DNA from: Takakia lepidozioides
Taxonomy: Eukaryota; Plantae; Bryophyta
Direction: 5' to 3'
DNA length: 64,000 bases
Assembly: GCA_030704615.1 (NCBI GenBank)
Contig: CM060734.1
Location: 7,378,001 to 7,442,000 of the forward strand
A program made the position numbers and the translations under genes. This document shows, piece after piece, positions 19,458 through 54,330 of this stretch. Below the pieces are notes generated by a model. It was given only the letters and a program-made list of their open reading frames with translations, was not told where the DNA came from and ran no database searches. Numbering within the stretch: position 1 is the stretch's first letter; each line of letters opens with the position of its first letter.

Positions 19458-20362
19458 CAGGGAATGCTAGACCGTGAACAGATTTCGTGAGCAGAAATTC
19501 CGTGAGCAGAATTCCGCTCACGTCCGCAGGCAAACGTTGAGAGTGTGGGGCCTATAACCGTGGACACCAAAGGGCACATAGGGCCTATTACCGCGGACTG
19601 GACCTTTCAAAGTTAGGGCAGTATTGCATATTTTTTCTCGCACAAGAAGTCCACAAATTGGATTATTATCCCTGCCTTTTGCGGAAAATTCTCGTACAAC
19701 ATGGGAATGGATGAATAATGGATGAATGTGTGATGAATGACAGATGGATGAACGACAAATTACTTGTAGTCCCCGTCCGCAATTGCTCCATCAAATCATG
19801 TCGTCGTCTCTTTGTTTTTGCCTGTGATGGTGCAGTTTCCGTACTTATGCTTGTATATCAATTCCTTCTCTCTGTCCACGTGAATGCTTGAACTTTTGAG
19901 GTATGCTGATTGATTGACAATCATAGAGAAAATGCAATCTAGTTTAGGGTTCAGTGTGTCCCACTGGATGGTAAATATGCAGACGAGTCAAAGTAGACAT
20001 TGAGGAACATTGCCAAACAGATTGAAGGCATTAGAATTCCATGTGAAAACTGCTCTTTCAAATTGCAACACCATGCGAGAGAAACATTACAAATGAATTG
20101 TGCTGTCAATGACCCTTAGATGGAAAGTGAGGAATCAGAACTACTGGTATCGCGATCTGTTCTTAGGCACTATGTCAATGAACACCCTAGCATTGTGGAG
20201 TGATTGAACAGTACTGTCGTTCGTTAGGTGTGGAGTTGGTGAGCCAAGGAGACAAAATTGACGGGCTGCTGCCTCTACATAATCTGGCAAGCGAAACATC
20301 TGTGGAGGACTAGGGAAGAAGTCCGGATGTGCAAAGAAAGGCAGTATCCGTGACGATGCAAA
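19458..20362 (-). mobile_element. End of a related MULE-family element that hosts the 20363-31677 insertion (continues after 31678)
   Basis: Terminus CAGGGAATGC resembles the reverse complement of the 31677 end (CAGGGATGC); CGTGAGC repeats; CCTATAACCGTGGA shared with about 20576; ATGGATGA repeats mirror 31100-31480. Confidence 0.6.
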
Positions 20363-21012
20363 CAACGACGCAATGGCGTGAGCGTTGCACGTGAGCGCGC
20401 GAGCGTACGCTCACGCAGGAGTGACGTGGCGTGAGCGTACGCTCACGCCAGCTAACGTGGCGTGAGCCTGCACACATGCTGACGTGGCGTGAGCGTCATG
20501 TCAGCATGCTGATGTGGCGGTAAATGATGACGTGGCACTGTCCGTCAACTGCCACGTCAGCATTAACATGCGCCGCCTATAACCGTGGATGGTCCTATGA
20601 CCGTGGAATTAATGCAGGGAATCTTGCCTAAATAGAATCAAGACGAGCGTTGAGGCCTACAATTGCAGCATCCAACATTGTGCAATTACAAATGTTTGTT
20701 TCACTTTTACAATTACGAAGACGACAAAATATCCTCACAAAGTGTGCGCCATAAAGGCTGCCACGAGAAGACTTCCTCCCTCCTCAAATAACAATGAGAG
20801 TTATGATCATCTTCAAAAGATGATTGTAGTGCATAGCGACAGCAAGACATGTAGACTTCGAACGGTGCAATGACAAATGTGCACTACCTAAAAGTTGTCA
20901 CTCAGACCTCACTCCGTATAGTTGGAGGCCATATCATTGCACAGCCGACGAATTGATGTGAATTACACATTTCAAATCATGGTCATCCACATACCACATT
21001 ACATAGTTCATG

Positions 21013-24000
21013 CTACCCATGTGTTGTATCCCGCTGCAAAAGAGTATCGACCTCGTTGAAACTCATAGTGGCCTGGTGAATGAAGTTGTCACGTTTGGGA
21101 TCGCAAACCATCCTCCTCAAAAATATGAAATACAAATGTTTGCAGGGTATGAATTTACCTCTCTTGCCCAAACTGGTTGATAGCATATTCACAAAATCAG
21201 GACATGTGCAATTGGGGAAATTGGAAACCGTGATGTCGTAGGTCCTGTCATGAACAACAGATGTGGAAGTGATGATTGTGAATACCCGACCATATCCTGG
21301 ATCGGGTACTTCCGTGGTGCTTCCGACACGAGCTTGGAGCATTCTTGCGGACTCCACTTTGCCAAAGTGTTCAGCGGTTGGATGGAAACGCCGAACGAGC
21401 TTTCCATCTCGTTTGGTTGGCCACAAGTCAGGATTTGCCGGGGGGACCCGGGAGGACGCAGGAGTAGTAGCACATGCATGGAGTTGGGGTTGTCTCGCAA
21501 GGGAAAAACCTGCCTCCTCCAGCATTTCAATCTCCTGAAAGCTGAGATGTGTTCCCACCTTCACGGGCCAAACGGTTGGAGGAGATGGCTTCATCACTAC
21601 GGAAGGACGCACAGTTCCATGCACACATCTGGCACAATCATCTGCGCAGAACCAGAACTTGTGGTTCTTGGCTTCTGGTTGACCGTATGGACGCATCAAG
21701 CTCGTGAAAGTCGGAGCAGGAGTTCGGGCACCACCTCTGGATATAGATGAAGTGCACTTCTCGAAATTAGTTGCCCTGATCGCTGTACATTTCACACGAG
21801 ACCCGACACTTGTGCGTTCTATGTGCCAAACGTGGTCGGGGCATGCGGACTCAAGCACATCAAGGGGGTTGTTTCTCTCCTGCACCATTTCAGTGGCACG
21901 GTTTGATGCTGGAGCTTGCCGTCGTGTTGGAGGTTCCTCCACAATGGAGGTTCCGGACACGGAGCTGTCATGCAGGGGAACACGAGGCTTCGAGAAGTTA
22001 TCACGGTCTGCCCTGTGGGAATCTGAATCCGAACCAGGTGGAGTGTTCAATTTCCTCTTACAGGAGCCGAATCTCTCCTCCCCTTCAAGATGTGGAACTC
22101 TAGAAACAAGTGGCGTTCCCTGGGCATACATGCTCACCGCCCGTGCTATCTTGATTGGATCCCCAGATCTGTTTGCAGCACGCAACATCAACTCCGATTT
22201 GTCCGGACCCTTGCCACCAACCCCACCTCGTAAGCAATCACGGTATCGGGTTTGTTGTTGCAAGGCACGTATCAAATCATCTGTTGTTGCCACATACAAA
22301 TCCCGACCTCGTTTCCCAGACTGCTGCAACCATGCATTGTGCACAGTTTCTGCCAAATTGCAAGATGGCATGTCTGCCATTTCCTCAATGGACATGTTCT
22401 GCAAAGAGGATAACCACACTTCAGAATAGTGCACAGGAAACAACATAAAGAAAGCAATGAGTCAAAAATATGGAAAGCAAATGTATGAATAAAGCATGAA
22501 ATAGAAGCCTCGTACCATTGTCATGGCTGCTCCCCACTGTCTATACCGGAAGTGCCAAAACGCCAGCCAATCTTCCAATGCTCTCATACTCTCAAGTGAT
22601 GCAGCTCCAGAAGAGAACCACCAGGCACGAATTGTTTGGAACAAAGTGTCCGCCTCCTTCATTGTTCTAGCATCTTTGTACTCTTTGCACAATTTACGGT
22701 GCTGAGTCTGCATCTCTGGTTTGATGTCCGACTTTGTATGTTTTTCCAGAGATTGTGTCCAATGGAATAGACATGTACGCTCTCTTCCTGGCATAGGCAC
22801 TTTTGGGTCGCCCGATCCGAAGACAATACGAATAGCATTGAAATTTGCTTGAGCACTATCCGCCATGAAACCTGCGAAATTTGGAGATGGCAGCCCATGG
22901 CAGCCCATGACACGTATCAGGGAATTCCACATGAGCTTCTGGGATTCCGTATCCTCGGATTGCATGTCACAAACTGCAATTGTCATAACTCGTTGGTACA
23001 CTGGATCGTAGACATGACAAGCCATTGTCGTCCAATCCTTCACTCGTTTCACATGATCAAACATAAGAAAACAGTTCTGCAAGTCCCAGTCTTTTGCATC
23101 CGCTTCACGAGGCTAACCCCACTGCCCTCCCCAACAGTCGACATTTTGAAAAGAAAAACTTTGATGGCACCTTGACCTGGGAATACATTGTCCTGGATGT
23201 AATCGTACTTGCTCAGTCGTTTCAATTCCAAAATATTGTCTATGTAGCCTCTGATCCCAGAGCCCATTCTCAATGCATTGATCTGATGCCGAATGTTAGG
23301 TGAACTTAAAGTGGAGAAATGATCCATGACCAGGTCCAATGCTGCACCGTCAAGTTTAGTCCCCACAGAATCTCCTTCACTCAAAATATGGCTTTCCAAG
23401 AAGGACTTGCTTGCGCCAAGAGCAATTGCAGATGTTGTTGCGGATGGGTTTCTCCCGAACTCCTGTTTGATCAACCTCGATACTGTCTCAACACTCTCCC
23501 TGTAATCCCCCTTCGAGACAGGATGGTTATGGAATCCAAAATGCACACAAGCTCTCGTCATTGTATTCAAACGGTGGACAACATAGTACATTCTTGCTCC
23601 GCAGAGCGCCAAGCAGGATGGCACAAGTTTGCAGAATTTGCAGACGAAAGTGTTTGCCGGTGGAGGGGCAGTCCCAGGCTGAAATGGATTCTCCGCCAGA
23701 CCCTCCCATTCGCTTTGATTATGAACTCCAGACTGAAGAAAGTGTCTGCAATTCAAATTATCACACCTAAGGTGTCCATTGCAAACTGTCCTCCTGAAAA
23801 CAAGCTTGTCATCATTCTGAATATTGGATGTTTTTGTTCTGCACCACGGGTGCCCGTCGTGTTTCTTGTCCATTCCATGCATCATGATTGTTACACCTCC
23901 AACTCGCGGAGGAGGAGGCAGCTCGAATAGGATATCGCCATCAAAAGTCTCCGGCAAGAACTTCACAGGCACCTGCTTCAAAGATTCCCAATCAATTCCC

Positions 24001-24527
24001 CGCAACTCACTTTTGAATCCAGCCATTCCTCCCATCGCCCGCAATTTTGGAATGACACTACAAATCTCTTCTTCATCAGCTTCTGCAACCACAGTAGGAA
24101 GGACTGGATTTGGAATTTCACTTATGTCATCATCGGAAGAATCCGAAAGCTCAACGATTGGAGTGGAGGAAGTCTGTTCTTTTTTCACCACCACCTCCCT
24201 CTTGTCTTCAACGACCGAAGCAGCAGTCCCGGGCGTCACATATGACCCAAGGGACTTTCGCCGAGGCTCTCCAAGTACTCTGTATCGACCAGGACGCACT
24301 CTCCACTGGCTGATATGAGCCGTCTCATCACGGTTTTGGAAAGAATATTTCACCAACTTCCCTTTCAGATCGTAAACCTCTTTCTCCAAAAAGATGGAGC
24401 CATTCTACAGCTGAAAACGGGTAGCCAAGACATGTTCCAGAACAATTGCAAATCCATTGTCAAGGACTTCCTGGGAGAACGGCACTGGTTTGTCGTCTGA
24501 GAAGAACTCCGCTTCAGAGGAAGCCAT
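21013..24527 (-). pseudogene. MULE-type DDE transposase with N-terminal GCM-like Zn domain and C-terminal SWIM finger (one stop, one frameshift as assembled)
   Basis: MFDHVK (D), FMADSAQANFNAI...CLFHW (D, CxxH), NLAETVH (E); SWIM CTCPDF...CKH; intron 22515-22399; in-frame TAG near 24406; frameshift near 23085. Confidence 0.85.
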
Positions 24528-25381
24528 CTTCCTTCCTCGAGTATGTTTGTACCTTGCTATCGCAGATCTAGTGTAAATCGGTTTACTGCTGTCTCCAGAA
24601 CACAGTTGAAGAATGAGCAGAGCATATGGCGGAGGAAGCTCAGATAACGACTGTGCATATTCTGTTATTCATTCCAGATATGCAGCCGTCCATTTTAATT
24701 ACTTTTCTTGTGGGCCCAGTGGTCAGAGAATCCATAGGGGCAGTGTCGGCAACTGTTAAACCGTTAATCAGAACCTCATCAATAAACCCAATAACAAAGC
24801 CGACTTCCTGGAAGCATGCCACAGGATCCGAGAATGGGATTGCAGATTAAGTAAATGTATCTATATACTACTACCAATGATCATGCGCACCTGGAAAGTT
24901 CCAAATGTGCAACGAATGTGGGGTTTGGATAACAAGGATGACGTGTATGATATTCCAAAATTTGTCATCAAACTCTCGTTCATTTATATTTATTTGTTTA
25001 AGACTGCGCATCAATTTCTGGGATTCGCTGTTCTTTTTAAATATTGAACCAGTTATAATTTAGAACACGCCGTTTTGTTTTGGGCGGCACACGTCAGACA
25101 TCCATAACTGAATACGAACAGCTGTACACCAATTGCTGGCATGTGCACTAATAACGAAACGACTATGTGTAACGGTCACGCGGGAGGGAATCCGATGCTT
25201 CTAGAGACACGCAAGAACACAGGCAATCCCGCAAGAAATCGAGAGTCACTGCGTTTTTCTACTTTTCGCGCTTAGAGGGAGAGTGGTAGTCAAGCTGGAG
25301 AGGGTTCCTTCTAGAATACGAAAGAGAAGAAAGTCTCTTTATTTTACTTCCCTTAGAGAGAGACGCAGAGCAAGAGAGAAA

Positions 25382-28300
25382 ATGACGAGGCGTCGTTTGT
25401 TGGAGAACACAGGGCCAAGGCAGCAGGTGAACGCGGAGACTGATTCACAAGAGCAGACGGAGACTGAGGCAGCGGCTGCGACACAGTCGGCGATAAGAGT
25501 GCGCCAGCCTGTGGAGGCAGAGATGAATCGCAGGGACACTGAAGAAGGTGGAAGCACGCGGAACGCCGAACCTGAAGAAGGTCAAGAAACCCTTGCGCAG
25601 ACAGAAACTCCAGCAGATGTGAGAGGGAAGAGGAAAGCTGCAGAAGGGGATCAAATTTCAAAACCTAAGAAGGTGCCAGTAAATTTTATCATATAGTCTG
25701 TGTGATTGCCTTTCAAGGAGTCCTTCCTCTTCCATTCTTTAGCAGGAACTACTGAATCGCGAGCGTCGTTAACGCCATTCGATTCTGCTCATGAGATTTA
25801 TGTACCTATGTGTTTGAAGAGAGAGTCTGCACTTACTATTCTCCCTAAACTACACTGAATGTCGTTGCCGCCAATCAGTTGCACATATATGTCATTACAC
25901 AACACCGATCCGGCAGGTTGTTATCTTTTGTGATTGTCGTTAACGCCGTTCGCTATCGCTCTCACTTTTGTTTTGAATACGGCAGTCTCGGCTTTGCATG
26001 TGTAGATTGTGCTGAATTCTTTCACACCATTCATGGTGAGTTTCCTTGATACAGAGTGATTGTCGTTACCGCCATTCACTATTTGCAAATCACTTAGTCA
26101 GAACTGAATGGCATCGTGCAGAAAACTGTGAGGTCGAAGCCTACAGGATCAGAGGGGAAAGGATCTGGAGATGGGGACGAGTCCGCAAAAAGCTCAGAGA
26201 ATACAGATGAAGCAGATGAATCCGAAGTGCACTACCTTGACAAGGTGAAAGAACTCATGTCATTCCAGAAGGTAAACTCTCAGGAGGTTATAAGGACATG
26301 CTCGTATCTGGAGGGCGTCTGGACATACCTCTGTGCCGGATGATATCAATGCCTGTTGTGCGTCCACCTCTTTCCCATGACATAACAAAATTGGAGAGTG
26401 ATTTTGTGCATGGATATAGACTTGGTGCACAAGTTTTTTATGTGTCACTGACGGATATAAATGGGAAAAGCACATTAGTTTCTCCAGAGATCAGTGATAA
26501 CTGGGATGAGTGCTGGAAAGATGCCAATGAGGAGTTCGAGCTGGGCCTCATGATGGGAAAGAACACCCAGCAATTTTGCAACCACATGTTCTACGTCTGG
26601 GACGGCAACCACCGATTGCTGGCATGGATGGGATACATTCAGAAACACCATTCGAAAGACAAAGACAAGCATGTTGCTGTGGAGGCAATGGTTTTGGATC
26701 CAGGAAACGACATCGCTAGGCTTCTTACAGCTATGCACGACGTGAACAAGTAAGTCATCCAGGAGATTTCATTCCCTCTGTAGTGTCTTGTTGATCCTCA
26801 AAAAACAGTGTTAAGGAATGCAATGTTTTCAATGTTTTTGCAGATCGACAGAGAAATCGCATGTGACAACAAGCTTGGTTCACACACTATTCCGAATTCA
26901 GAGGATTGGTCTGATGAAGCTGGATGATTTTCGGACAGTACTACCACCCAATATCATCAAGAAGTGCGAAACAGGAAGAGCTGCAGGCACTTGGTATTCT
27001 TTGACACGAGAGGCGTTTCTGGAGTACATGTATGCGGTAAGCCCGAGTCTGTAATCTGTTTACTTTTCGAATACATGTTTAGAGTCCCTTCGGAGCTAAT
27101 CACTACTTGAATGAATGCAGCAAGAACTGGCAGAGGCAGCTGAGAAGGGAAAATCCGAATATTACCGCACTACACCAGAGGAACTAAGGACATCAAAGGG
27201 TGTGGAAGCTGCAATAAAGAAGGAGTTTGAGATGCGAAGAACCAAATTGATGTCAGCCTTCGGAAAGCAGCTTAGAATAGTAGATCCTGGACTTGGTCCT
27301 GAGTTCCTTCAGCAGATCAAAACACACTATGACAAGCATGTGCATCCGGAGATGCAGCAGGAGAAATTGCACCGGCTGGCCATATCGATGGTCGACCCAC
27401 AAACAAAAATAAGGTGGCTGGAGATATGGAACTCAGATCAAACAGTAAAGGACTTGAATCAGTTCCCAAAGAGCACCATACAGCCTGGCACAAAGGTGGA
27501 AGGAATCAGTGATTTGGTGTTTGATAACTGGCTCCACAAGGCTACATTTTGGAGTCAGGTGTGTATTCGAACATGCTGTTTCTTCTCTTCAAGTATGTGA
27601 TGTGTATCTTTTTTGCAATTCTGACAAATATACTATTTGCAGCTCGAAAAGCGCGCCGTCATTGTGCTGGATCAGACTTTGAAGGACCTGAACATTGCGA
27701 TTGTTTCCCCTCCCCAAATGTCATTGGAGGCATACATAAGGAAGTGGAGAGGTCTCACCTGGAGATACTGTTTTTTCCGGGAGTTCTCCAAAGATGGTAA
27801 CATTTTACGGTCCAACGACTTTGACAGTCAGGTTGGAGGAGAGTGGGCCATGATGCGAGTTGTGTACAGGTGCAATGTCATACTTGAAACTCTACTGTTT
27901 TTTTGGGAAAAAATGTGGCTTCATATGGATTGCAATCTTAGATCCAGATTGAATGTCGTTGACGACATTCACTTCTTTGTCTGAGTCATTCTTAAGCGAG
28001 TATATGAATTCACCTGGTTAGGATCTAAGGGTGCAATTATATTGTCCCTGATTAGAATTGATAATGTCCTTGAATGGCGTTGACGACATTCACATACGGA
28101 GTTGTTGAGAGGTCCTCAAGGTTATTTAAATTTTTGTAATGTCCATAGAGGTTACAATGAGGGTTCCTCACTTCATTTTGCTGAATGTCAATGCAGACAT
28201 TCAGTTGTTCTGCATTGTTTTTTCCTCTTGCGATGAATATGGAGGCTTCATAAGCTCTGTTTTAAGAAATCCAAAGTGAATGTCGTTGACGACATTCACA

Positions 28301-30650
28301 GCTGTGTCTGTATTATTCAAAAGCGACAAATTCAATTTTCATGGATTGGGGAGCTAAGTAATTGGTTTCTTTTTTGTATTTTTGTGAATGGCGTTGACGC
28401 CATTCACATACAGTGATGTTGTGAGGTCCTCAGTGATAGGTTCGTTATGAATGTGCATTGAGTTTTCCTGGATGGTTCCTTACTCAATTTTTTTATTTCC
28501 ATCCTGTGATTTTGCTTCATTTCAGTAATAATTTGGCTTCATTCTTGAATGTCGTTGACGACATTCACTTCTATGTCTGTGTCATTTCTAATCGATTATT
28601 TGCATTCACCTGGATTAGGATGTATTTACAGTGTCATGGAATGGAATGTTCTGAATGGCGTTGACGACATTCATATCTGGAGCAGTAGTGTGGTCCTGAA
28701 AGGTCCTTGGAGCAGTTGTCAGAGCCATTTCAATCCATGTTTTATTCTTTCTGTTCTACTTGCATCTTACTCACTGAGCGCTTTTGTGGGTTGGGATTCA
28801 TCTCCTTTTTTCAGGTACACGAAATATGTGCTTATGGAAGGAAATCACCTGAGCGGAATTCCCGACTATCTTGACATGTGGTCGGACCCTGCAAACGATC
28901 CAACCATGTATACTGCAGGGATATTGAAGGACTGGAGTCCTTCTCACTTCAGAGACTGTGGGTGGTACCTTGACTGCCCACCTGAGCACACGACCTTTCA
29001 AGAACAGCATATGAAATACTTGAACAATAACGCTGAGATGCTGGCGCCTTTGACTGACGAAGAGTATCAACGAAACATAGCAACCTTGGCTGCCAAGGAG
29101 CCTGATGCTCAGGGAACGCCGCAGAAGGGAAAGAAGGCGGGCCGCAAACCAAAAGACAAGGCTGTTGATGTCATAGCCATCTCACCAGCAAAGCCAAAGG
29201 ACAAAGACAAGTCCAAAGAGAAGGAAAAGGACAAGGGGAAGGAGAATGAAAAGGAGATGGAGAGTGGGCAGGACTTTAGTGCTGGAAGATATACCCGCAC
29301 TCTTCAGTGCGTGTTCGATGCCAAGCCACACCCTTCCCGTTCTGATTCAGCAGGAGAGATGAAAATTGTTAATGAGGGTTGGCTTTCGATGATGCAGAGT
29401 CGAAAGAGAGGATACACTGGGGTGCCATCCCCTACCTGGGACAATATAATCTCATTCCTCAATCTGGTGAGAATTCCAGTTTCTTTCCTTTTTCTCTGAA
29501 TGTTTCGTTGGCAGTATTTCAGTCTCGTTCTTTGAAAACATTCTTGCCATCGTTCTTATAAAAAACATGTCTGTTGCAGGTGAGCACAGGTCCCACCTTC
29601 GTGTGCGGTGTGCAGAAAACTTATGCGGCCGACAGAAGTTCTTCCAAAGGGCAAGACGCCAGGCTGGAACAAATTCGAGGACAACTACTGGAGTTGGGTA
29701 TTCGGGTTCTGTAACAATTTCCTCTCTGATGCAGGGACACTTCTGCTTTTTCAGTCATGTGACAATGATAGTCGTCGGGCATTGGCATCATACCTCAAGT
29801 CTTCAGGGTTTGAAGTTTTGCGCACATGGAATTGTGTGAACAGCCTCTACCTTGTGAAAGGGGGTTTCCCTGGTCAGCTGGTATGCCGTCTGCCTTCTGC
29901 TTGTGCTTTGATCATGAGTTTCAATTTTCTCTGCAGCTCCACTCTAGTAGAATGTTTTATGATCGACACCGATCATCAACGATTCATGGTTTTTTTGTGT
30001 CAGAGTTCTGAATAGCCGATGTACACACTTCCACTTTAGATTGTGTTTACCACACTAACCTGCTATCTTTGGCAGACGAGGATGTTCGAGGCGATCTGCC
30101 TGCGGAGGATTCGCACATCAAAGACACCATCCTCCATCCGCAGCTTTGAGATTTCTGACCAGGGTTGTTTCGTCAACCCCCCCTATGAGCCCCATGTCGA
30201 TGACATTTTGTACAACTTCATGCAGTCCAGTCAGACTCTGAAGAGACCAGATGGCACTCCCTGGAGAGGTGCAAAGGAAAAGTCACCAGCATTCATGCAA
30301 ATACTGCTGGAGTCATGCAGCCACCGCTCTGCACGGGTGGTCGATCTTTCTGTGTCCACAGGTTCGTTTTCTCCCTTCCGAATTGGTTTCCTTTCAACAG
30401 TTTCATCTGCTTAAATCCCCTCCTCCAAACTGTTTATGTTCTCCTGTCTGGTGCAGGAGCAACTTACCACGCATGCAAGGCAGGCGGAAGAAGCCTTTTT
30501 GGCATGGAGGGTGATTCTGACCTCTACAACACCGTGCTCCTCCCCCTTTTGTCTGGCTCCACTTCAGGCACACAGACTGATCGGATTCAAATTCGAAATG
30601 ATGACGATCCCGAAGATAAGCAGGTCGACAACGACTTTTCATGTGAGTAA
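25382..30650 (+). CDS. Multi-exon ParB/Srx-like domain + N4C/N6A DNA methyltransferase-like fusion (transposon cargo); apparent frameshift near 26295
   Basis: FYVWDGNHRLLAW ParB-like motif; FLSDAGTLLLF, KSPAFMQILLE, VVDLSVSTGATYHACKAGGRSLFGMEGD in beta-class MTase order; GT-AG introns 25673-26121, 26750-26843, 27037-27120, 27559-27642, 27870-28814, 29467-~29589, 29881-30075, 30362-30456; 3' end uncertain (may extend past 30720). Confidence 0.75.
25760..28673. repeat. About 11 dispersed copies of palindrome (G)TGAATGKCGT-TG-ACGMCATTCA(C) in two introns
   Basis: Degenerate copies at 25760, 25856, 25931, 26057; stronger copies at 27950, 28071, 28182, 28276, 28384, 28546, 28652. Confidence 0.9.
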
Positions 30651-31099
30651 GTGCTAAACCCTCTTTGGGAGTCATACTCAATTTCTCGATAACATCAAAG
30701 TTACAGTAATAACTTTTTCAGGCTGTCTTTCAGGAAAGCCAGCGGTGGATCTTCAGGAGATACAGTCATTTCTGGCGAGTCTGTTTTCGACAGCCCCCTT
30801 TCCAATTTTCTGCTCCTTGTTTATGCCGAAGCAATGGCACTTCACGCGTCCGAGTCCCTATCCCCTGACTTTTTAGTGGCCAGCCGTAGGTGTATCCAGC
30901 GTGGATCCGGTGTTCTAAAATACTTAGACTTAGATGCAGAGGAAGAGGGGATACATTGTACTGACTCTGAGTCAGACTGAACTGTATTCTTTTAATATTC
31001 ATTTTCATATTATCTGGAAAACGTTGAATCCCCTTACTCTACCGTAGTTGTTCCTTTAGAACAAATAATAATCACAGAATCAACTTTCGTTTAAATTGC

Positions 31100-31480
31100 T
31101 ATATGTATGAATCCATCTCACAAACCTTCCTGACTCTTCTCATATCCATTGTGCATTCATCTACACTGTATTCATGCGTGCTCCATTCATGAAAGCTTCC
31201 TTTGTACAACATCCATTGTACATTCATCCTCTGTACTCTTTAATCCACCCCACAAACCTTCCACACTCATTTCATATACTTTGTGCATTCGTCAAAAGAT
31301 TTGGTCATGCATCTTCCTGTCATGAATTTTTGTCATTGCTCAACATCCATTATACATTCATCCATTTTACTCTTATCCATCCGTCATTCATCCATCTACA
31401 TAGATTTTTCAAACTCATCCATCTGTTTATCATCCAACTGTACATTCATCCATCATTTATTCAATGCCTTTTATTATGTC
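31100..31480. repeat. Subterminal (T)CATCCAT-rich repeat tract of the MULE
   Basis: Many ATCCAT/CATTCATCC units; CACAAACCTTCC duplicated near 31119 and 31251. Confidence 0.75.
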
Positions 31481-32329
31481 GTCCAGCTTGTTTCCGCGGT
31501 AAAGGGTGCCAATCCGCGGGAATACACTCCACTTCTTTCTGGGTGCGTGGTGACTCGGCCTCCACGTGTGATGACGTGGACTGAGCCCCGTGACGTGGCA
31601 TTTGCGCAAGGTGACGTGGCGTGAGCGCAGTCGCGCTCACGCACTCACGTGACCAGGCTCACGCCGAGGCATCCCTGCGATGCAAAAGGGCTCCTGCTAC
31701 ACATGGCACACCAACACCCACCACGGGGAAACGTTACAAGTGTTGGAGAAGCCATGAAACAAACAAAATAAAGGACATCAAATAAAAAATGATAAACAAC
31801 AAAAGGGGCAGACTTACTCACAGTCAAAATCGTCATCTATTTCTATATTTTTTGGTGACAAGGGCTCGGTAACGACAATGTCTTATGTCGTGGCCCCTTG
31901 CCTTGAGGGCAGGGGGTCGGGACACAAAAAGGGTTGCCCCTGTGGTGGGGGCAGTGGCAACAATAGGTACGGGGGCTGAAGCACCCTTGAGTGCCCAAGG
32001 CACTCAAGGAGGCGGAGGCGCTCACTAGGTGGAGCCCCGCACACCGGGTTGCGGTGGGGGTGGGTCCACGAGGGGTGGTGGTAGCTTAGTGGGCCTTAGT
32101 GGGGGTGGCATAGGACTCACCATGGGGCGGAGACCTTGTGGTGGGAGTTGCAGGGAGTCTTGGGACTCATCACAGTCCAATGGGGCCGTGGTAGGTGGGC
32201 CAAGACTCACCGCGACTCATCACCGGGAATCGAGGGTCTTCGTGGTGGTTTGCCATAAAATGACTGGGTTGTTTGTGAAACCCCCGCGGACAGTCACAGA
32301 AGTATATATAGGGAGTAGTAACCCTCAGG

Positions 32330-32790
32330 AAGGGACAACTACTCAGAATCCCGATGTGCAGAATGAGACCACTGCCAGCGGTTCGAAAAGCCGAGAGGCC
32401 GGGTATAGAGAAGTTGAAGCTGTACTTCAAAATGGATGGTTACAACGACGCATTGGCCTCATTCCTCCTGGCCACAAATGATGGGACCGGAAGAGAGATG
32501 GAAATCACAGATGCGGACAGAGCAGGCTGGGACCCTCATTGGCAGTTAGTGGACTCCCGATTTGAAGCCCACATACTGGGAACAGAATGGGAGTTCATGT
32601 CGAGCAGATGGCTGTACATTTTGATGGCAACCATAGATCATGGATGGCCCGGATGGAGGTGATTTCAGGGCAGCACCCACATGACATCGAGTGGCACTAC
32701 TCTGTGAACTCAAAGATTCTGGATGTGAAGAACGAGGACATGCCTCTTGTTCATCGGGCAATGCACCGCATGAACTAGTAAGTATGTTTT
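32330..32790 (+). pseudogene. Third ParB-like cargo paralogue, truncated and frameshifted
   Basis: RIPMCRMRPLPAVR...KLYFKMDGY...DGNHR...WHYSVNSKILD...AMHRMN aligns with 26330-26749; followed by donor GTAAGT at the homologous position. Confidence 0.8.
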
Positions 32791-32859: not shown

Positions 32860-33265
32860 TTATTATATTGGACATAGTGTGTGCTCATGTGAGCGAGGTA
32901 TAACAAGATCAGTTTTATGGTGGTGGACACTGACACATACAGCATGCTGCTCGGACTAGACTTCTTAAAGAAGTTCGAGGCAGCAGTTGATACGGAAACA
33001 GAGACGCTACGGGTCAGGTATGGACCTAGGCTCAATGTGGCTTACTTTCCACTCCACACCATGAATCAATTGAAGCCAACGATTGATAATTTCCATGAAT
33101 TCTGCAAGAACTTGGCGGTGGAGCCAATGATAGAGGAACAAGAAGGCCAAACCGAGGTCATGGCTCTTGATGCATCCCCTCACAGTATACCGACGTATGA
33201 CCACAAAAGCTCTCGTGCCCATCGCTTCGCTCATCCCATACTACATTGGTTCTCCTAGGATGACC
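32860..33265 (+). pseudogene. LTR-retrotransposon aspartic protease C-terminal fragment
   Basis: VVDTDTYSMLLGLDFLKKFEAAVD motif. Confidence 0.6.
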
Positions 33266-33267
33266 AA

Positions 33268-34560
33268 ATTGACCAGCCCAACAACATTGCTGAAGATATC
33301 GGGGTCACCATCACAAAATCTGATCTCAATGGGAGACAGCCCCCGTCTACGTACATCCTGTCCGTTGAAACACAAAATGTAGGGTAGGATATATGGGGCT
33401 TCGAGGCGTAATGTACGGAACTCCCCGAAGGTGTAGTATGGACCGTAGTAGGGAAACAAGTCCATCATGCTGTTGCTCCCACGAGGAACCACAATATCAT
33501 TGACCGTAAATAAACCCCGACCCATAGCAGGGTCAGTAGTGGCTCTCACAACATACCGTCTACCCCAATACTCGAACTCCACATTCTCTCGGATGGGGAT
33601 AAGAGGGTCGAGACGATTCCCCCAACAACGAGGCTGAACGGTCCTCAGTAACATAGTCCTATGCGCTTCCCATCGGGGGCGAGGATCCGGCTTAGGCCGC
33701 CCAAGCCGAAGGGGAGGAAACCTAGGGCGAAGCCGATCCATCCTAGGGGTTCGGGGGGCACATGCACGTCGAGATAGAGGTGGAGGTGGAGATGGAGGTG
33801 GTACTGCTGGCGGAGAAGATGAAAGTGGAGGTGGTTGAGGATGTAATGCTGGAGGTGCAGCCGGGGGTACAACGTCCGGATCAGGCAAAGAAACAGACGG
33901 GGGGGGGGGGGGGGGGGGGCGCACAATCGGCCTGCAAGTTGCTACTGCATGTACGGTGCGGAGAATCATCAAATGAGGACACTGGATCAGGGGGACCGCC
34001 TGAGGAAACCGGAGGGGGGGTGGGCCTACTCGTTGCCGGCCATAACGCCTACGACACCTACGATACCCCTCGACCCTATGCATCTCATCTACGTGGTGCT
34101 GGGGGAACCAACTGGTCACATCGGGCATACTTTTGCCGCATCCGCAATCAAGTTCTACGCGTAATGTAATTCGACAATATACGGTCGCCGCCTCGGTGGT
34201 CTGGTGCCGCCCGGCAGTATCCGTGCCCAACACTTAGTGCACCAACACTCAATCCTGTCGGGGGGGGGTCAAAGGTGGACGTGCGTGGGCGTTGTGCCTC
34301 TAGACTAGCAGGGCTCTCACCACGGGGTGGTCCACGAGGGGGCAACCCGCGGCGCACCCGACTCGATCCCGGAGTGTCAACATCCTCCGCATCACCTGAA
34401 ATTTGGCCCCGGTCCTTCTACGATTGTGTCCGCCAGACTGTATTGTATCAGGTGCAATGGGTCGCTCCTCACCATGAAAAATGGTCGCTCCTGGGCCAGA
34501 ATCGATATGTGGTACTGCCTCCCCATCCAAGAGGGAGACGGCTCGATGTTTCCTCACCAT
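33268..34560 (-). pseudogene. Pro-rich plus truncated SET-domain-like ORF inside a CACTA-like element
   Basis: YVVRATTDPAMGRGLFTVNDI...FPYYG...DGDP..SNVVGLVN, broken just before the expected NH/S motif; start MVRKH shared with 48435; frameshifts and stops. Confidence 0.6.
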
Positions 34561-35332
34561 CGCATCCTAATTAACACACACCACCAGCACTTTCATTTCT
34601 CAAAACCGTTGGCGAAAAAACCCTCTGTCCCTTTTCCACCCTACGACAGCAAAGGGTCACTACGCCCCAACACCGGGAGGCCGTAGCGACCCTGCAAAAT
34701 TCAAACTCCAAAACCCAGTATCAAAAAAATCCTATAAAGAAAAAAAAACAAATCCCAAAAAGACCAGTCCCACATTGCCTAAGGGCCTGGGCCTTTGCCT
34801 CAGCCTCGAGACTTTCAAAATTGGTAAACAAAGGCGGAGCATCCTTCTGGTGCTAGAGAGCCCAAGACAATAAATCCTTCCTCACGTTCTATCTTCAGGT
34901 TGCCCACACCATGGAAAAATTTATTGAGACCCAGCACTTTGCGCTTATCAGATTGAACCGTTTTTTGGATATGTGAATCCTAATTACACCGTTTATCCTT
35001 TCAACCCTAAGACCCACAACCAAAACCGCCAATCCAAAACCCAGCACCATAAAGAAAACCAAACACCCTACCCCAGTACCATATGAAAAAAAATAAAAAA
35101 ATAAAAAACTAAGAACCCCAAAAGGCCCTAAATCCTAAATCTAAAAAGCCCGGTCGTCGCCGATTGCGACGCGCGTTTTTTATTTGTGAGTACGGGGGTC
35201 GTCAGCCGCGACGGCACGCCGTCGCAGGCTGCGACGTGTTTGTTTTAATTTGTGAGGTCGGGGGTCGCAAGCCGCGACGCCCCGCTGTCGCAAATATCCA
35301 GTTTGAATTTTATTTTTTAAAACGGGGCGCAG
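33268..35332 (-). mobile_element. CACTA-like element copy A (terminus missing)
   Basis: 34357-35332 is the reverse-complement homologue of 47800-48639; GTCGC/GCGAC subterminal repeats at 35150-35295. Confidence 0.6.
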
Positions 35333-36150: not shown

Positions 36151-36301
36151 TCTTCCAGAAGTGGCGCGTGTGTCACGAGAGAAGGTCGGGCAAGTGGCAA
36201 AGAAAAGAGCAACATTTAATATAACCGTACCCAGGAATGAGGGGCAACATTTAATTCGATATGGCATCAAATCGGAGGGTGACGGCCCCACGTGCCTGCC
36301 C

Positions 36302-36730
36302 GAGAACATCACCCGGATGGAAAAACGGCGCCGAATTTCCTGCCGAGACCGTTCGGATGAAGTCGTCTCGGGGGGAGAGGCGACACCAGGCCGACAGAGA
36401 TCAGCCCCCGGATGGAAAAACGACGCCGAATTTCCATCCGAGGCCAGCCGGATGAAGTCGTCTCGAGGGGAGAGGCCGACACCTGGCCGACAGAGAACAT
36501 CCCCCGGATGAAAAAACGGCGCCAAATTTCCATCCGAGGCCCGTTGGATGAAGTCGTCTCGGGGGGAGAGGCCGACACCTGGCCGACAGAGAATATCCCC
36601 CGGATGGAAAAATGGCGCCGAATTTCCATCCGGGGCCGTTCGGATGAAGTCGTCTCGGGGGGTGAGCCCGACACATGGCCGACAGAGAATATCCCCCGGA
36701 TGGAAAAAACGGCGCCAAATTTCCATCCAC
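36302..36730. repeat. Tandem array, 96-bp unit, about 4.5 copies, containing palindrome GGATGGAAA..GGCGCC..TTTCCATCC
   Basis: GGATG anchors at 36315, 36410, 36506, 36602, 36698. Confidence 0.92.
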
Positions 36731-36827
36731 AGACGCCCGTATCGGCCCTTCTTCAACAATTTTTAGTCGTTGCATCAAGTTTTTTGCGTTTTTTTTACTG
36801 GTTACACACTAAATTTGGAATTTTTTG

Positions 36828-37125
36828 CCTGCAGGATGGAAATTCGGCGCCGGATTTTCATCCGCCCCCGCTCCGAATTACCTGCAGGTTGGAAATTCGG
36901 CGCCGGATTTCCATCCGGCCCCGCTCCGAATTACCTGCAGGATGGACTTTTCCATGCCGGATTTCCATCCGCCCCCGCTCCGAATTACCTGCAGGTTGGA
37001 AATTCGGCGCCGGATTTCCATCCGGCCCCGCTCCGAATTACCTGCAGGATGGAAATTCAGCGCCGGTTTCCCATCCGGCCGCACTCTGAATTACCTGCAG
37101 GATGGACTTTTCCATCCGGCGTCTC
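36828..37125. repeat. Tandem array, 53-bp unit, about 5.5 copies, same palindromic core
   Basis: CCTGCAGG at 36828, 36881, 36934, 36988, 37041, 37094. Confidence 0.92.
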
Positions 37126-38284
37126 GTGGATGACAACGGCTCGGGCGGAGGGAGGGCCACGTTGCGTCCTACTTCATCTGCTGGATGGAAATTCGGCGCC
37201 GTTTTTTCCATCCAGCGGGCGACTGATGAAGTCTCGGGGGGAGGGTGGGCCTGTCGGCGCCTGTGGCCGACCTCCATACCTACGACATTTAATGGCGCAG
37301 TTGCGCATTAAATGTTCTCCGCCGTCGGTTTTGAACCGGATGTTCCACAAGGATTCCGCGATTGCTTCCCGGATACGCCTTCGACACCTGATGTGACGCT
37401 TGGATGAAGTTCCATTCGAGGCATGTACGCACGCATACCTCGGGAGATTTTTTCTTTTGCTGGGACTTATGCCGCGTGGAGAAGGGCGTGGCTCTCCTGA
37501 GAGAAACCCCACACCCAAACCGCGGCGGAAGCTGAAGGCTTTGTATTACGGACGGCGTCCAACCTCTCGCATGGCCAAACTGAAGCTCCAGCAGGAGATC
37601 CCATTGTCTTGCTCACAGCCCGCGCCAACTGAAGCCGAGCACTCTCAGGCAAGCCCCTTCCTCTTTCGCTTTGTGTAACATGTGCGGTCTTCCTCGCTTT
37701 CTTTTGTTTGTTTTGGCATCTTCAGCCTGGCAGCCCTGGAAGTGCATGGTTGCATTGCAAAAGCACGAGTTGGTGAGATGAATGATCAATGTCAGAGGGG
37801 TTAGAAAGGAGCCGGGTCGTTGCAAAAGCAGGAGTTGGTGAGAAGAATGATGAAGGTCAAAGGGGTTAGAGCCACGTCATTGCTGCATTGAGATTTGCAA
37901 CAGGGTGCACACCTTCGCTGTAGATGACAGGTTGCATCCCAGAATTAAGGAAATCCATGCTGAGCTGAGAAGATTGTCTGGGCAGATGAAGTGCCTTCAA
38001 AACATTTCACCCTCTTTTCCCGTCTTATCGAAATCGTCCTTAAATTTTCATGTTGATTTCAGCAAGTTACTGGTTGAGTGAACCTTAGATAGTTTGCAAT
38101 GCTTGTGCAAAGTCGACAGCTCTGGAAAAGGCTGCTTCTGCATGTGATTCTTAGGGATTGCTTGGGTTTGTTTTCATTGTTGTTCCACGATTGTTGCGAT
38201 GGTGGTTGCGATGGTGGTTCTCATTGCGATGTTGGTTCTCACAATTGTTGGGGATGACAGAGTGACGACGAGCCCGTCACGCTG

Positions 38285-41200
38285 GTGGTATCATCGACAG
38301 CTCCAACTGCTCGAGCAGTCACTCCAAAAGCCGCTACTCATCGCATGTTTGGATCGCCCAACTTGGGGCGGGAGGGCAAACTAAATCCTTTTGTTGGTGG
38401 ACGGGAGGACCTGCAGCGAGAGTACGACAAAATAGGCATTGGGGAGGTTGGTGCAGGCAGCATGGCAGGTGAAGGGCGTCGGATGAGAACAGCAGATCCG
38501 GCAATGGAGGAAGTTGATGCACATGCAGTAGGGCCCGCCCACGCAAAGAAGAAGAAGAAAGCCAAGCACATGCAATCCCCAGCGAGAGAGCCGTCACGGG
38601 CTGCGGAGGGGGGAGTGAGCAGGGCGCGCGAGGGTGTCATTTTGCCTCAATCAAAGGTGGTCGTCCTGGAGGCCTCCCCTGCTGCTACCCCTAGTAAGAA
38701 ACAGAAGGCCCGTGAGAGGGCAAAAGAGAGGGCAAAAGAACAGGCGAGACAGAAGGCTAGCGATGAGGCAAGAGAAAAGGCCACTGAAGAGGCCAAGGTT
38801 GTCGAAATGACAGATGCCCATGTAAGCGAGGGACGCACAGAGACGGTGGATCCCTCCAAGACACCACAAACAGGCAGTAACACACCGGTTACACCATCGC
38901 GGGTGGGAGCAGCCCACCAAATTACCCATACAGTGGAGACTGGAGGAGGGGAAAGAACACCACAAAGAGCACGGATTGTGGAAGTTCGAGGTGAAGCCGG
39001 GGAGAGGGCAGTAGAGACGGGGAGAGTGCTCGAGGTGGTTCCGGCGGTGGTTGACCATGTTGAGGACGACGAGAATGAGCTTTCTGACCAGGATGACATC
39101 CTCCCGGACATCCCCAGGCCCCAAACCCGAAGCATACAGGCTGGATTTGGCGATCCGGGTGGGCTGCCGGAGAACCCCCTTGCAACAAACATCATGTCGG
39201 AGGCGGATATGAAGTTGGCCGTTGCCAAGATGTTGGAGGCAACCCACAGCAACATTGGCAGGGTCCTGGGGGGCATGGTGTACCCGGCCAAGCTTCGGAT
39301 TCCCCTTTGCCGCTTGGTTTCATTGCAGGTGGTGAGACTTGCCCTCCCAGGCGATATCGACAAGCTGAAATTCTCTTTCCGGGAGGGATATCGAATGGGG
39401 TCTGCCTCGTTTTACGTTTCCATGGAGAACGACCACGGAGCTTCTCTTTCCAGCACTTGTCCGGAAAGATGTTTTACGTGTGGGACGGCAATCATCGCCT
39501 CCTGGCATGGATGGAGTACATAGCCCAAGCCCACCCCAACGACCTGGATTGGCATTTTGCCGTGGAGTGTGTTGTGCTCAAGGTTGCGGGGCCCAAAGAT
39601 CGCTTTGAGATGGCAGACATCAACTTGTAAGTTACAATGCCTCTTGCTTTGGAACTTTGAATTTGAAACAATCATTGCATTGCCAATCGTCATATTTGTT
39701 GCAAATTCTCATTTATGTATTGTTTAATGGAAATGTGGCATTGCAGGGTGACTGAGAATGCCTTCATTGCCACCAACTTGTCCCATATGCTCTTCTGAGT
39801 GAAGGATGTCGGGAAGCAAGGGGTGCAAGAGTTTGCCAATTCGCTCAGTGCCGACCTGCTACGCAAGTCGGAGGCAAAGGCAGACAGAACCCGGTATAGG
39901 CTGAGCATGGACGCCATGGTGGACTACATATTTCGGGTAAAGCTCCTGACTGTTTTGTTCAGCTTATTTGTCTCTCCTCCCCCAATAGAAGAAAAAGTGT
40001 TGACCAGGATTTCTAATCATATCTGTGCATTCTTGACAGACGAAAATTCAGCAGGATTTGGCACATGCGCGGAGGTTCTACACGGAGTCAGAGGAGAAGA
40101 AACTAACCCTCCCGGCACTGGAATCATATCTCAAAGCTGCAGAGGCGAAGGCCCGCATAAAGTACAAGTCGCGGATGGTAAAGTATGTGGCCATAGCTGA
40201 TCCCGCCCTTGGTGTCGACTTTCTGGTGGAGGTGGGGAAGCACTACTCCCACGCTCTGAAGTCCACGATGACATTGGAGAAGCTGCATCGTCTAGCCACA
40301 TCCTGTGTGGATGCAATAGAAAAGGTTATACATTCTTAACCAAATTGTCGTGGCAGCAATTCGTTTTTGTGGTGTTTGGCGCTTACTAATATGTTGGGTG
40401 GTTGGACAGACCCGGTGGCTCCAAATCTGGAATGGTTCCCAAAGTACAAAGGACATTTGTGTGTGTTTCTTGAATGCAGGTACTGCAAGTTCTCCCTTTT
40501 GGAGAAAGGTCATCTGTCCTTCGAGCCGCCATTATTCCTCGCATGGAGGAACCCTGGGGCTGACTCCATGTACACTGACGTTATCGTGAAGGAGTGGCAT
40601 CTGGAACATTTGCGCGACTACCCTTGGTATGTGGACCTTCCGCCCGGCTCGCTCGACTCATCCGAGTTTCAATTGAAGCTGGATGCGGAGGCCCGACAAA
40701 ACCGGGCTCCGCTGCCTCCGTTGGGTCCAAAGGAGGCGAAAGCGCTTGCCAAGTCCAGGAAAGCGGCAGAGCTTGCTCAGGCAGGTATTCAGGAGAAATT
40801 GAATGAGAAGAATAAAGGTCAAAAGAAACAGGGGAGTACAGTAACCCCCAAAAAACAGAAAACCACCGGGGCACCAGAGGAGACGCAGGAGGGGCCCCAA
40901 GGGAATGACTCCGACGACAACTTTGTGCAAGGTCCTGCGACTGCTGCTGCTGGTACCAAGTCACCGGTCGTCCGGGTTCCCAAGTCAGTTCGGACTGGGA
41001 CTGGCTCTGCCAAGAAGTTGGCATTTGAGGGCGAGCCTACACGGTGGTATTCGGCGGTGACGTTTCCGCAGAGGCCAAAGCTAGAACCCCCAACCATCAT
41101 CCAATGTGTCAATGAGAGCTTCCTTGACGTTATGGCTGCCAGGGCGAAAAAGGTGGCACACAGCAAGTCTGTGGAGAAGCTGAAGGGGAAAGCCAAGAAG

Positions 41201-54100: not shown

Positions 54101-54244
54101 CCATGACAAACCATTGCAGCATGATTTGAATGTTGAAACGCAAAAACAGTCACGGGCTACGCCAGTGATACCAACGGAGTATGGAGCACTTGTCGCTAAG
54201 CCGAGCGTGTATGACCAGGGCGGGAAGTACAGGTGTTCGCATAG

Positions 54245-54330
54245 CTATCACAGCCCAACACAGCGTGACACAGCCTATCACAGCCCACCATAGTACCACA
54301 CAGCCTGTCACAGCCCAACACAGCCCATGC
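54245..54330. repeat. CACAGC-based minisatellite (also in both LTRs, about 48645-48860 and 58785-58930)
   Basis: 10-11 bp units ending in CACAGC. Confidence 0.85.

What the first reader, a model, noticed from the sequence alone, without database searches (positions are those of the whole stretch)
25382..30650. ParB-like + beta-class MTase-like fusion with no canonical catalytic motif IV
Seen: DGNHR motif in the N-terminal half; a C-terminal series FLSDAGTLLLF...KSPAFMQILLE...VVDLSVSTG-ATYHAC..GRSLFGME matching the N6_N4_Mtase layout (L..GG, KP..L..LI, VLDPF.GSGTT..A...GR..IG.E). I find no D/S/NPPY in any frame where it is expected (about 29580-29670; the spliced reading gives RPTEVLPKG). Known: bacteria-derived 4mC methyltransferases exist in Marchantia and bdelloid rotifers. 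Inference: either an atypical active 4mC/6mA writer or a catalytically dead fold reused for DNA binding, possibly loaded by a ParB-type clamp.
Basis: partly seen in the sequence, partly recalled or inferred. Interest (0 to 1): 0.85.

Follow-up and report, generated by a model that had tools for sequence, protein, structure and literature searches.

The report
Transposon's disarmed ParB-methyltransferase helper gene
This is a damaged copy of the second gene of an 11-kb Mutator-like jumping gene; its family joins a predicted ParB-type domain to a predicted bacterial-type DNA-methylase domain whose usual catalytic motif is altered, and the protein likely binds palindromes in its own introns to regulate or shield the element, a design already reported from algae.

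Summary
The gene is real. Nine GT-AG exons read as 1,090 codons, and both folds are predicted: ParB/Srx and beta-class amino-methyltransferase. It lies head-to-head with a Mutator-like transposase in an 11,315-bp element with a 9-bp target duplication. Motif IV is missing for two reasons. This copy has lost about 38 nt that carry the motif-IV strand, which three read sets retain. And the family has D-x-P-[D/E]-G instead of DPPY/SPPY, with no aromatic residue in 19 of 19 aligned homologues or in an intact 1,040-aa relative. Motif I and the SAM-contacting His are altered too. So it is not a Marchantia/bdelloid-type 4mC writer and is most likely a pseudo-enzyme. Ten copies of a 20-bp palindrome sit in two of its introns; some relatives carry their own arrays. 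The likely role is a self-binding regulator, VANC-like. Catalysis, CTP use and clamp loading are untested. A ParB+methylase gene opposite a transposase is published for Ectocarpus, and this scan noted the same family on other DNA several times. Verdict: a new variant of a known kind.

The parts
20363..31677 (.). Mutator-like DNA transposon, 11,315 bp, two divergent genes
   Evidence: 9-bp direct repeat on both sides (the 9-mer occurs only twice in the window); read contigs break off at 31677/31678 and cover starts in the 20368 bin
20354..20362 (+). left target-site duplication (9 bp)
31678..31686 (+). right target-site duplication (9 bp)
20363..20560 (+). left imperfect terminal inverted repeat with short subterminal repeats
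   Evidence: 47-column blastn match to the right end at 79%, E 6e-5
31560..31677 (-). right imperfect terminal inverted repeat with short subterminal repeats
21013..24550 (-). Mutator-like transposase gene with C-terminal SWIM finger; intron about 22399-22515 (inferred); frameshift near 23084 against X2; 5' end not fixed
   Evidence: SWIM E 0.0069, below cut-off; 44% identical intact homologue L010 hits Transposase_mut at E 0.038, below cut-off; table 4
25382..25672 (+). exon 1, low-complexity acidic/basic N-terminus (start and donor inferred)
   Evidence: no RNA joint seen
25761..26077 (.). four copies of the 20-bp quasi-palindrome in intron 1 (25761, 25857, 25932, 26058)
26098..26749 (+). 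exon 2, ParB/Srx-fold domain with DGNHR; one base missing at 26293 against X2 and X3
26844..27869 (+). exons 3-5 (26844-27036, 27121-27558, 27643-27869), conserved central region of unknown fold; candidate DNA-binding part
   Evidence: no HTH match by HH-align (inconclusive)
27951..28672 (.). six copies of the palindrome in intron 5 (27951, 28072, 28278, 28386, 28547, 28653) plus a decayed one at 28183
28815..29466 (+). exon 6, conserved W-rich stretch then Lys-rich linker
   Evidence: joint 27866>28812 GT..AG in X1; homology to P0034 and L008
29580..29880 (+). exon 7, first half of the beta-class MTase fold; about 38 nt carrying motif IV missing at 29633/29634; alternative acceptor at 29616
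   Evidence: (tables 5, 5c)
30076..30361 (+). exon 8, variable region (non-conserved NPPY at 30175), motif X-like and motif I-like
   Evidence: joint 29880>30078 in X1
30457..30650 (+). exon 9, end of motif I, motif II Glu, acidic tail, stop

Best explanation
This is a damaged copy of the accessory gene of a multi-copy Mutator-like transposon, and the family's intact protein is likely a catalytically dead methyltransferase-fold DNA binder, joined to a predicted ParB-type nucleotide switch, that would sit on palindrome arrays in its own element and keep that element expressed and mobile against host methylation. Shown: the element with target duplication; the nine-exon frame; both predicted folds; the family-wide altered motif IV; the palindromes; spliced contigs of near-identical copies in a run guessed to be RNA. 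Inferred step 1: the protein is made as one chain of about 1,050-1,100 aa. Inferred step 2: the MTase domain cannot methylate an exocyclic amine efficiently, because the Tyr that stacks on the flipped base is replaced by Asp/Glu and the motif I Phe and the SAM-contacting His are lost. Inferred step 3: the protein binds the 8+4+8 palindromes, probably as a dimer, through the central region or the MTase surface, with the ParB domain acting as an NTP-dependent on/off or spreading switch. Inferred step 4: the effect is family-specific anti-silencing or autoregulation of the divergent gene pair, as VANC does for VANDAL.
For: Folds: ParB/Noc/Srx fill the top Foldseek rows (best E 0.0099) and VIA-align gives Z 7.5 PadC, 7.3 KorB, 7.1 SerK, 7.0 Srx. 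CcrM E 1.3e-6; Z 11.6 CcrM, 11.3 M.MboIIA, 10.4 M.PvuII. Register: HH-align puts D-V-P-E on D/S-P-P-Y and D-I-T-A-S-T-G-A-S on D-P-F-x-G-S-G-T-T. No aromatic at motif IV position 4 in 19 of 19 homologue rows; 0 of 26 proteins hold [DNS]PP[YFW]; position 1 is D in 11, E in 3 and Q in 3 of the 17 stretches picked out. L008 is an uninterrupted 1,040-aa six-exon gene with the same altered motifs, so this is not decay. The Tyr stacks on the target base and a His bonds the cofactor ribose in N4CMT (PMC10406627, passages). Constraint on the protein: 24 invariant positions in the ParB exon over 9 sequences at 40-50% identity... listed as 34 invariant columns; 9 synonymous to 1 non-synonymous among the listed exon differences between the window and X2. 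Palindromes: 10 sites against a chance mean of 0.05 matches, all in introns 1 and 5; invariant over 21 columns in 6 copies whose flanks vary, CpGs kept while the rest of intron 5 has CpG o/e 0.26. Own arrays next to relatives: L008 (4 copies, the only matches in a 4.8-Mb bin), L005 and the second family member in this window (8 matches). Linkage to the transposase in 2 of 2 distinct loci with enough upstream DNA. Precedent for inverted-repeat arrays beside ParB-type transposon genes in red algae (bioRxiv 2025.02.11.637652, passages).
Against: No binding or activity was measured. Motif IV keeps its Asp in most members, the Pro at position 3, the downstream W-N, the motif I Asp and Gly and the motif II Glu, so SAM binding or an unusual catalysis is not excluded. 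No DNA-binding domain was identified in the central region. The strict palindrome scan found arrays in only 2 of 5 loci with the gene (L005, L008; not L001, L003, L007), and found an unrelated palindrome family elsewhere in the window. The palindromes could bind the transposase or a host factor. Copies were picked by matching the motif, which inflates their apparent conservation. The MTase model is of a homologue (L008), has mean pLDDT 71 and lacks the last strand. The X1-specific differences are 12 non-synonymous, mostly G>A or C>T, so the transcribed copies seen are decaying, not protected.
Confidence: 0.45

Rival explanations
1. The intact protein is an active but unorthodox methyltransferase. 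The ParB domain targets or activates it at the palindromes, and it writes 6mA, 4mC or a ring-nitrogen mark on its own element, blocking host 5mC or marking self.
For: Motif IV Asp in 11 of 17 stretches, position-3 Pro, W-N, motif I Asp/Gly and motif II Glu are kept over 20-40% identity. The Asp and a backbone carbonyl, not the Tyr, hold the acceptor amine in CcrM. The Ectocarpus authors predict 4mC or 6mA for their gene. ParB-like proteins activate phage DNA-modifying dioxygenases (PMC13229309, passages). tRNA m1A58 enzymes appear among lower fold hits (Z 6.1); that their motif IV is also D-x-P-type is recalled and was not confirmed.
Against: The stacking aromatic is absent in 19 of 19 rows; position 1 drifts to E or Q in 6 of 17; the motif I Phe and the HP-type His are replaced. 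Inactive MTase domains in transposons have precedent (DIRS1; PMC4738411, passages).
Confidence: 0.25
2. The protein acts in transposition itself, not in silencing. It binds the internal palindromes and, through an NTP-driven ParB switch, helps pair the ends, position the transposase or choose targets, like a second ORF of MuDR or CACTA elements.
For: Fixed head-to-head linkage with the transposase; the TIRs are short and imperfect, so a helper is plausible; related ParB-type genes move between unrelated transposon superfamilies.
Against: The palindromes lie in the accessory gene's introns or upstream DNA, far from the ends, which have their own different repeats. Exchange between superfamilies fits a transposase-independent function better.
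Confidence: 0.2
3. The gene is neutral cargo: a captured, decayed prokaryotic or host ParB-MTase gene with no present role, and the palindromes are leftovers of tandem duplication.
For: The window copy and most metagenome loci are broken; three family members in this window are all damaged.
Against: An intact 1,040-aa relative at 27-29% identity with shared intron positions; 34 invariant columns in the ParB exon; 9:1 synonymous excess against X2; palindromes conserved while their flanks drift.
Confidence: 0.05

Closest known systems
Accessory gene of Sola1-1_Ec32, Ectocarpus (PMC12477816; passages and three supplement rows seen)
   Same: ParB-like domain plus N4C/N6A methyltransferase domain, about 1,100 aa, transcribed opposite to the transposase in a large DNA transposon; proposed to bind and modify its own element.
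   Different: Different superfamily (Sola versus Mutator-like) and host group. The paper predicts an active enzyme and says nothing of motif IV in the passages seen. Its protein sequence was not found by the supplement term search, so homology and its motif IV are untested.
PAG2 and PAG3 of red-algal Plavaka and Mutator elements (bioRxiv 2025.02.11.637652; passages)
   Same: Transposon accessory genes with a PF01555 methylase (PAG2) and a ParB-like domain (PAG3); arrays of inverted repeats beside the ParB gene; also found on Mutator elements.
   Different: ParB and methylase are on separate genes, fused to a 2OG oxygenase and to SET. PAG2 scores with PF01555; no piece tested here does.
VANC anti-silencing proteins of Arabidopsis VANDAL elements (PMC10398659, abstract; PMC5735166, search listing)
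   Same: Second gene of a Mutator-like element; acts through fast-diverging repeats in the element's own non-coding DNA.
   Different: No homology was tested or is implied; VANC binding and demethylation are shown by experiment, nothing is here.
Phage and prophage ParB-N6_N4_Mtase fusions (bioRxiv 2025.10.10.680097, passages; PMC4738411, passages)
   Same: Same domain order. Such fusions of 420-510 aa appear (same open frames hit by TIGR00180 and PF01555). Likely source of the domains.
   Different: Half the length, no introns; no sequence-level relative was found in phages, plasmids or viral contigs.
MpDN4MT1 (Marchantia) and N4CMT (Adineta) 4mC writers (bioRxiv 2021.02.12.428880 and PMC10406627; passages)
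   Same: Bacterial-type beta-class fold in a eukaryote; N4CMT is a fold hit (Z 10.2).
   Different: They have TSPPY/SPPY and shown activity and are host genes; ParB is not mentioned in the Marchantia preprint (0 occurrences).

Membership tests
beta-class N4C/N6A DNA methyltransferase | permuted Rossmann fold with motif IV before motif I | tested here: met
   model of homologue L008; HH-align including window exons 7-9
beta-class N4C/N6A DNA methyltransferase | catalytic motif IV (D/S/N)PP(Y/F/W) | tested here: not met
   0 of 26 proteins; no aromatic at position 4 in 19 of 19 rows; strand deleted in the window copy
beta-class N4C/N6A DNA methyltransferase | SAM-binding motif I F-x-G-x-G and acidic residue of motif II | tested here: inconclusive
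   Asp, last Gly and motif II Glu kept; Phe replaced by S/T and first Gly by S in window and L008, kept in P0034
beta-class N4C/N6A DNA methyltransferase | methyl transfer to DNA | not testable with these tools
   needs enzyme assay or modification calls
Marchantia/bdelloid 4mC writers | SPPY motif | tested here: not met
   versus 26, 92
ParB/Srx superfamily | ParB-N fold with GxxR P-motif | tested here: met
   (Z up to 7.5, all top rows from this superfamily; each row alone is middling); DGNHR invariant in 10 of 10; motif definition
canonical ParB CTPase clamp | central HTH and C-terminal dimerisation domain | tested here: inconclusive
   HH-align to 8 bacterial ParBs gave probability 0.4 and did not detect even the N-terminal domain; region not folded
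canonical ParB CTPase clamp | CTP binding, loading at a palindromic site, sliding | not testable with these tools
   nucleotide preference cannot be predicted from sequence
Mutator-like elements (MULE) | 8-11 bp target-site duplication | tested here: met
   9 bp; range from PMC6446971 passages
Mutator-like elements (MULE) | Mutator-type DDE transposase with SWIM finger | tested here: inconclusive
   SWIM E 0.0069 and Transposase_mut E 0.038, both under the Pfam cut-off; the D-D-CxxH-E reading is by eye and recall
Mutator-like elements (MULE) | terminal inverted repeats | tested here: met
   imperfect
algal ParB + methylase transposon accessory proteins | ParB-like plus methylase domain, opposite the transposase in a DNA transposon | tested here: met
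   architecture only
algal ParB + methylase transposon accessory proteins | sequence homology to the Ectocarpus or red-algal proteins | not tested
   sequence not obtained
VANC-type anti-silencers | binds own repeats and removes silent marks in trans | not testable with these tools
   needs ChIP and methylome data

The most novel reading that the evidence does not exclude
A widespread class of transposon accessory proteins has carried a bacterial ParB/parS-like switch into eukaryotic chromatin: each family's protein loads on its own parS-like palindrome array by NTP binding and spreads along the element. Its D-x-P-[D/E] methyltransferase domain either reads and shields CpG or writes a DNA mark not yet described in plants, giving the transposon its own sequence-specific epigenetic system.
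Probability: 0.2. Interest if true: 0.9.

Novelty: new variant of a known kind. Interest (0 to 1): 0.52.

Why it matters
[quoted passage not shown] This family supplies a candidate target (intronic palindrome arrays that differ between families), an intact relative to express, and a sharp prediction from the altered motif IV. That makes it directly testable whether eukaryotic transposons use a bacterial ParB-type nucleotide switch and a pseudo-methyltransferase to escape host silencing. That would be a route different from VANC. If the enzyme is active after all, it would be a new catalytic variant of amino-methyltransferases.

Tried and rejected
No whole genome is held, so copy number and intact copies in this genome could not be counted. 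Pfam and PHROGs do not recognise either domain: no relevant family for the window exons, P0001-P0008, P0012, P0026, P0032, P0034 or the L008 exon. PDB sequence searches gave nothing relevant. No relative was found in viral contigs, phages (best E 1) or plasmids. The one hit in prokaryotic genomes, L008, has five GT-AG introns and is taken as a eukaryotic contig in a cyanobacterial bin. No full-length annotated homologue turned up in two 'longer' searches; the exon 8 search found no candidate. The in-frame NPPY at 30175 was rejected as a relocated motif IV: wrong place, not in L008 or P0034. HH-align for a ParB HTH was inconclusive. The homodimer prediction for a homologue's ParB region returned no answer. 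The likeness of motif IV to tRNA m1A58 enzymes is recalled and could not be confirmed. No holder of the sequence is on record as RNA; X1 and X4 are RNA by guess. X1 crosses intron 2 and intron 8 unspliced, and no joint was seen for exons 1-5. My first exon models had off-by-one errors, corrected. The shared consensus of the window and L008 palindromes (5 of 8 arm positions, same 4-bp spacer) was written after seeing both and matched no other locus. Iyer et al. 2011, cited for green-algal cases, is not held; it may already describe this family.
Full report
Observation. All quoted motifs are in the sequence. Nine exons with GT-AG borders (25382-25672, 26098-26749, 26844-27036, 27121-27558, 27643-27869, 28815-29466, 29580-29880, 30076-30361, 30457-30650) give one frame of 1,090 codons without a stop when two breaks are read through with N. 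As it stands the frame stops at codon 179. Contigs of run X1 (RNA by guess) show GT..AG joints for introns 5 and 6 (the latter to an alternative acceptor at 29616, 20 letters on the short side) and a joint across intron 7. The borders of exons 1-5 and 9 rest on homology and splice signals; the introns 2 and 8 were crossed unspliced by X1 contigs.

Why motif IV is missing, first reason: this copy. Runs X1, X2 and X3 carry 36 extra letters at 29633/29634 (table 5c). With the 2-nt overlap of the joint this is a 38-nt loss between two short direct repeats, and it shifts the frame. The extra letters read as a hydrophobic strand and D-I-P-D-G. X2 and X3 also have one more base at 26293, and X2 one more at 23084 in the transposase. 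These and two more listed single-base insertions extend homopolymer runs and may be assembly errors. The 38-nt loss is not of that type. I could not test whether reads support the window's form.

Second reason: the family. The exon 7 search gave 25 hits. In the alignment of 19 of them, motif IV reads mostly D-[ILV]-P-[DE]-G, with no aromatic at position 4 in any row. None of 26 proteins (these 25 and P0034) holds [DNS]PP[YFW]. A pattern picked out the motif stretch in 17 of 26 (position 1: D 11, E 3, Q 3); that pattern fixed the allowed residues at position 4, so the claim about the aromatic rests. Locus L008, an intron-bearing contig in a cyanobacterial bin, encodes an uninterrupted 1,040-aa protein in six exons, 27-29% identical to the window's, with D-V-P-E. 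A naturally spliced homologue, P0034, has Q-V-P-D. HH-align against 17 bacterial beta-class MTases (17 of 29 loci passed my filter) gives probability 97.2 and E 4e-11 over 202 columns. It places D-V-P-E on D/S-P-P-Y and shows the motif I Phe and the His before motif X replaced, with the motif II Glu kept. In the N4CMT structure paper the Tyr is modelled stacking on the target base, the His bonds the cofactor ribose, and the Asp/Ser plus a backbone carbonyl hold the acceptor amine (passages). An in-frame NPPY at 30175 is in the variable region and is not shared by L008 or P0034.

Folds. The window's exon 2 model (pLDDT 83) matches Noc, ParB, Srx and KorB by Foldseek, with none at E <= 0.001, and PadC, KorB, SerK and Srx at Z 7.0-7.5 by VIA-align. 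DGNHR is invariant in 10 of 10 sequences and fits the GxxR P-motif, which does not tell CTP from ATP or GTP binders (passages). The MTase fold was modelled on the L008 exon, because the window's domain is split and damaged (pLDDT 71). It matches CcrM (E 1.3e-6; Z 11.6), M.MboIIA, M.BceJIV, M.PvuII and N4CMT. The language-model search agrees: N6_N4_Mtase clusters for P0034 at 0.93, and unnamed, DUF3723 (31% of members) and ParB_N (11%) clusters for exon 2. No HTH was detected in the central exons, but that test also failed to see the known ParB-N likeness.

Context. The gene lies head-to-head with a transposase-like gene (SWIM E 0.0069; intact homologue L010 with Transposase_mut E 0.038; both under cut-off). 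A 9-mer found only twice in the window flanks 20363-31677, the ends are imperfect inverted repeats, and read contigs break off at 31677/31678. MULE duplications are 8-11 bp. Of 7 metagenome loci (4 distinct), the 2 distinct ones with at least 7 kb upstream both have the transposase head-to-head; the other 2 are too short. L008's bin has the transposase on another contig. Two more divergent, damaged family members lie in this window at 32324-32780 and 38258-42000. The host is a eukaryote with CpG depletion (o/e 0.41 in the left flank, 0.20 in a Ty3/gypsy ORF, 0.68 in the element). Earlier notes call the host a moss or the family liverwort-like; I did not test that.

Palindromes. A 20-bp quasi-palindrome (8-bp arms, 4-bp spacer) occurs at 10 sites, 4 in intron 1 and 6 in intron 5, and nowhere else in the window; the chance mean is 0.05. 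The six copies in intron 5 are nearly invariant over the palindrome while their flanks vary, and both CpGs are kept where the rest of the intron has o/e 0.26 (copies were chosen by match, and an eleventh decayed copy has lost both). L008 has four copies of a different palindrome within 400 bp upstream and none elsewhere in its bin. L005 has seven 51-bp units in an intron. The second gene in this window is preceded by 8 matches to a 30-bp palindrome. A strict scan found arrays in 2 of 5 gene-bearing loci, none in L001, L003 or L007, and one unrelated family elsewhere in the window.

Selection. 34 columns are invariant in the ParB exon over 9 sequences. Among the listed exon differences (the tables show 40 of 151 and 40 of 567 rows, the latter count including rows of other tables cut) the window and X2 differ by 9 synonymous and 1 non-synonymous change. 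X1 shows 14 and 12, its own changes mostly G>A or C>T, as in decaying methylated copies.

Mechanism. I commit to a pseudo-methyltransferase plus ParB-type switch that binds the family's own palindromes and acts as anti-silencer or autoregulator (0.45). Rivals are an unorthodox active writer (0.25), a helper in transposition (0.2) and neutral cargo (0.05). Architecture, motifs and sites are shown; binding, nucleotide use, inactivity and effect are inferred.

Known systems. Ectocarpus Sola1-1_Ec32 has a 1104-aa ParB-like + N4C/N6A methylase gene opposite its transposase, and the authors cite similar proteins in green and red algae. Red-algal Plavaka and Mutator elements carry a methylase gene and a ParB gene with inverted-repeat arrays beside it. 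VANC is the functional model (abstract). Paper searches for a land-plant or bryophyte Mutator case listed none. Subscription papers, Iyer 2011, bioRxiv supplements and figures were not visible to me and may bear on novelty. Earlier notes of this scan describe the same kind of element on other DNA and pointed me to the Ectocarpus paper.

Verdict. A real feature; a damaged copy of a conserved transposon accessory gene; new variant of a known kind; interest 0.52.

Noticed in passing
window 38258-42000 (+): A second, divergent and decayed member of the same gene family (DGNHR near 39480, exon 6-9-like pieces, motif I-like stretch near 41760). No motif-IV strand is visible in it, and no transposase homologue was found beside it by tblastn.
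   Followed up: partly
window 36300-37220: Two tandem arrays (96-bp and 53-bp units) built on a 30-bp palindrome, 1-2 kb upstream of the second family member.
   Followed up: partly
window 32324-32780 (+): A third ParB-like exon fragment with DGNHR and a frameshift. It starts where contigs of a deeply covered repeat (from about 31886) break off, and is followed by text resembling a retrotransposon protease (about 32920-33070; by eye).
   Followed up: partly
window 33241-34233 (-): ORF whose C-terminal part looks SET-domain-like by eye; no Pfam hit at E 10. Red-algal PAG2 joins a methylase and SET, so a link is possible.
   Followed up: partly
window 48600-59100: Ty3/gypsy element: pol ORF 51076-53709 (RT, RNase H, integrase) between 90% identical direct repeats at 48715 and 58786 that carry 10-bp tandem arrays.
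   Followed up: no
window 6566-9750 (-): LINE-like RT and zf-RVT pieces with a duplicated 2.2-kb segment; further copies of the 3' part at about 34780 and 46560-47160.
   Followed up: no
window 35208, 47843, 47907: Another short palindrome family inside long inverted copies at 34357-35169 and 47994-48639.
   Followed up: no
L008 and L010 (G001 contigs C58, C80): A cyanobacterial metagenome bin in the genome collection holds two intron-bearing contigs with an intact accessory gene and an intact transposase of this element family, likely eukaryotic contamination.
   Followed up: yes
window 26301-26750 versus ESM Atlas: The ParB-like exon scores 0.94 with a fungal cluster in which 31% of members carry DUF3723. 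DUF3723 occurs in many Starship papers (search listing). It may be another ParB-like cargo of giant transposons; untested.
   Followed up: partly
window 20771, 23084, 26293, 31970: Single-base losses in homopolymer runs against the read contigs suggest long-read indel errors in this assembly.
   Followed up: partly
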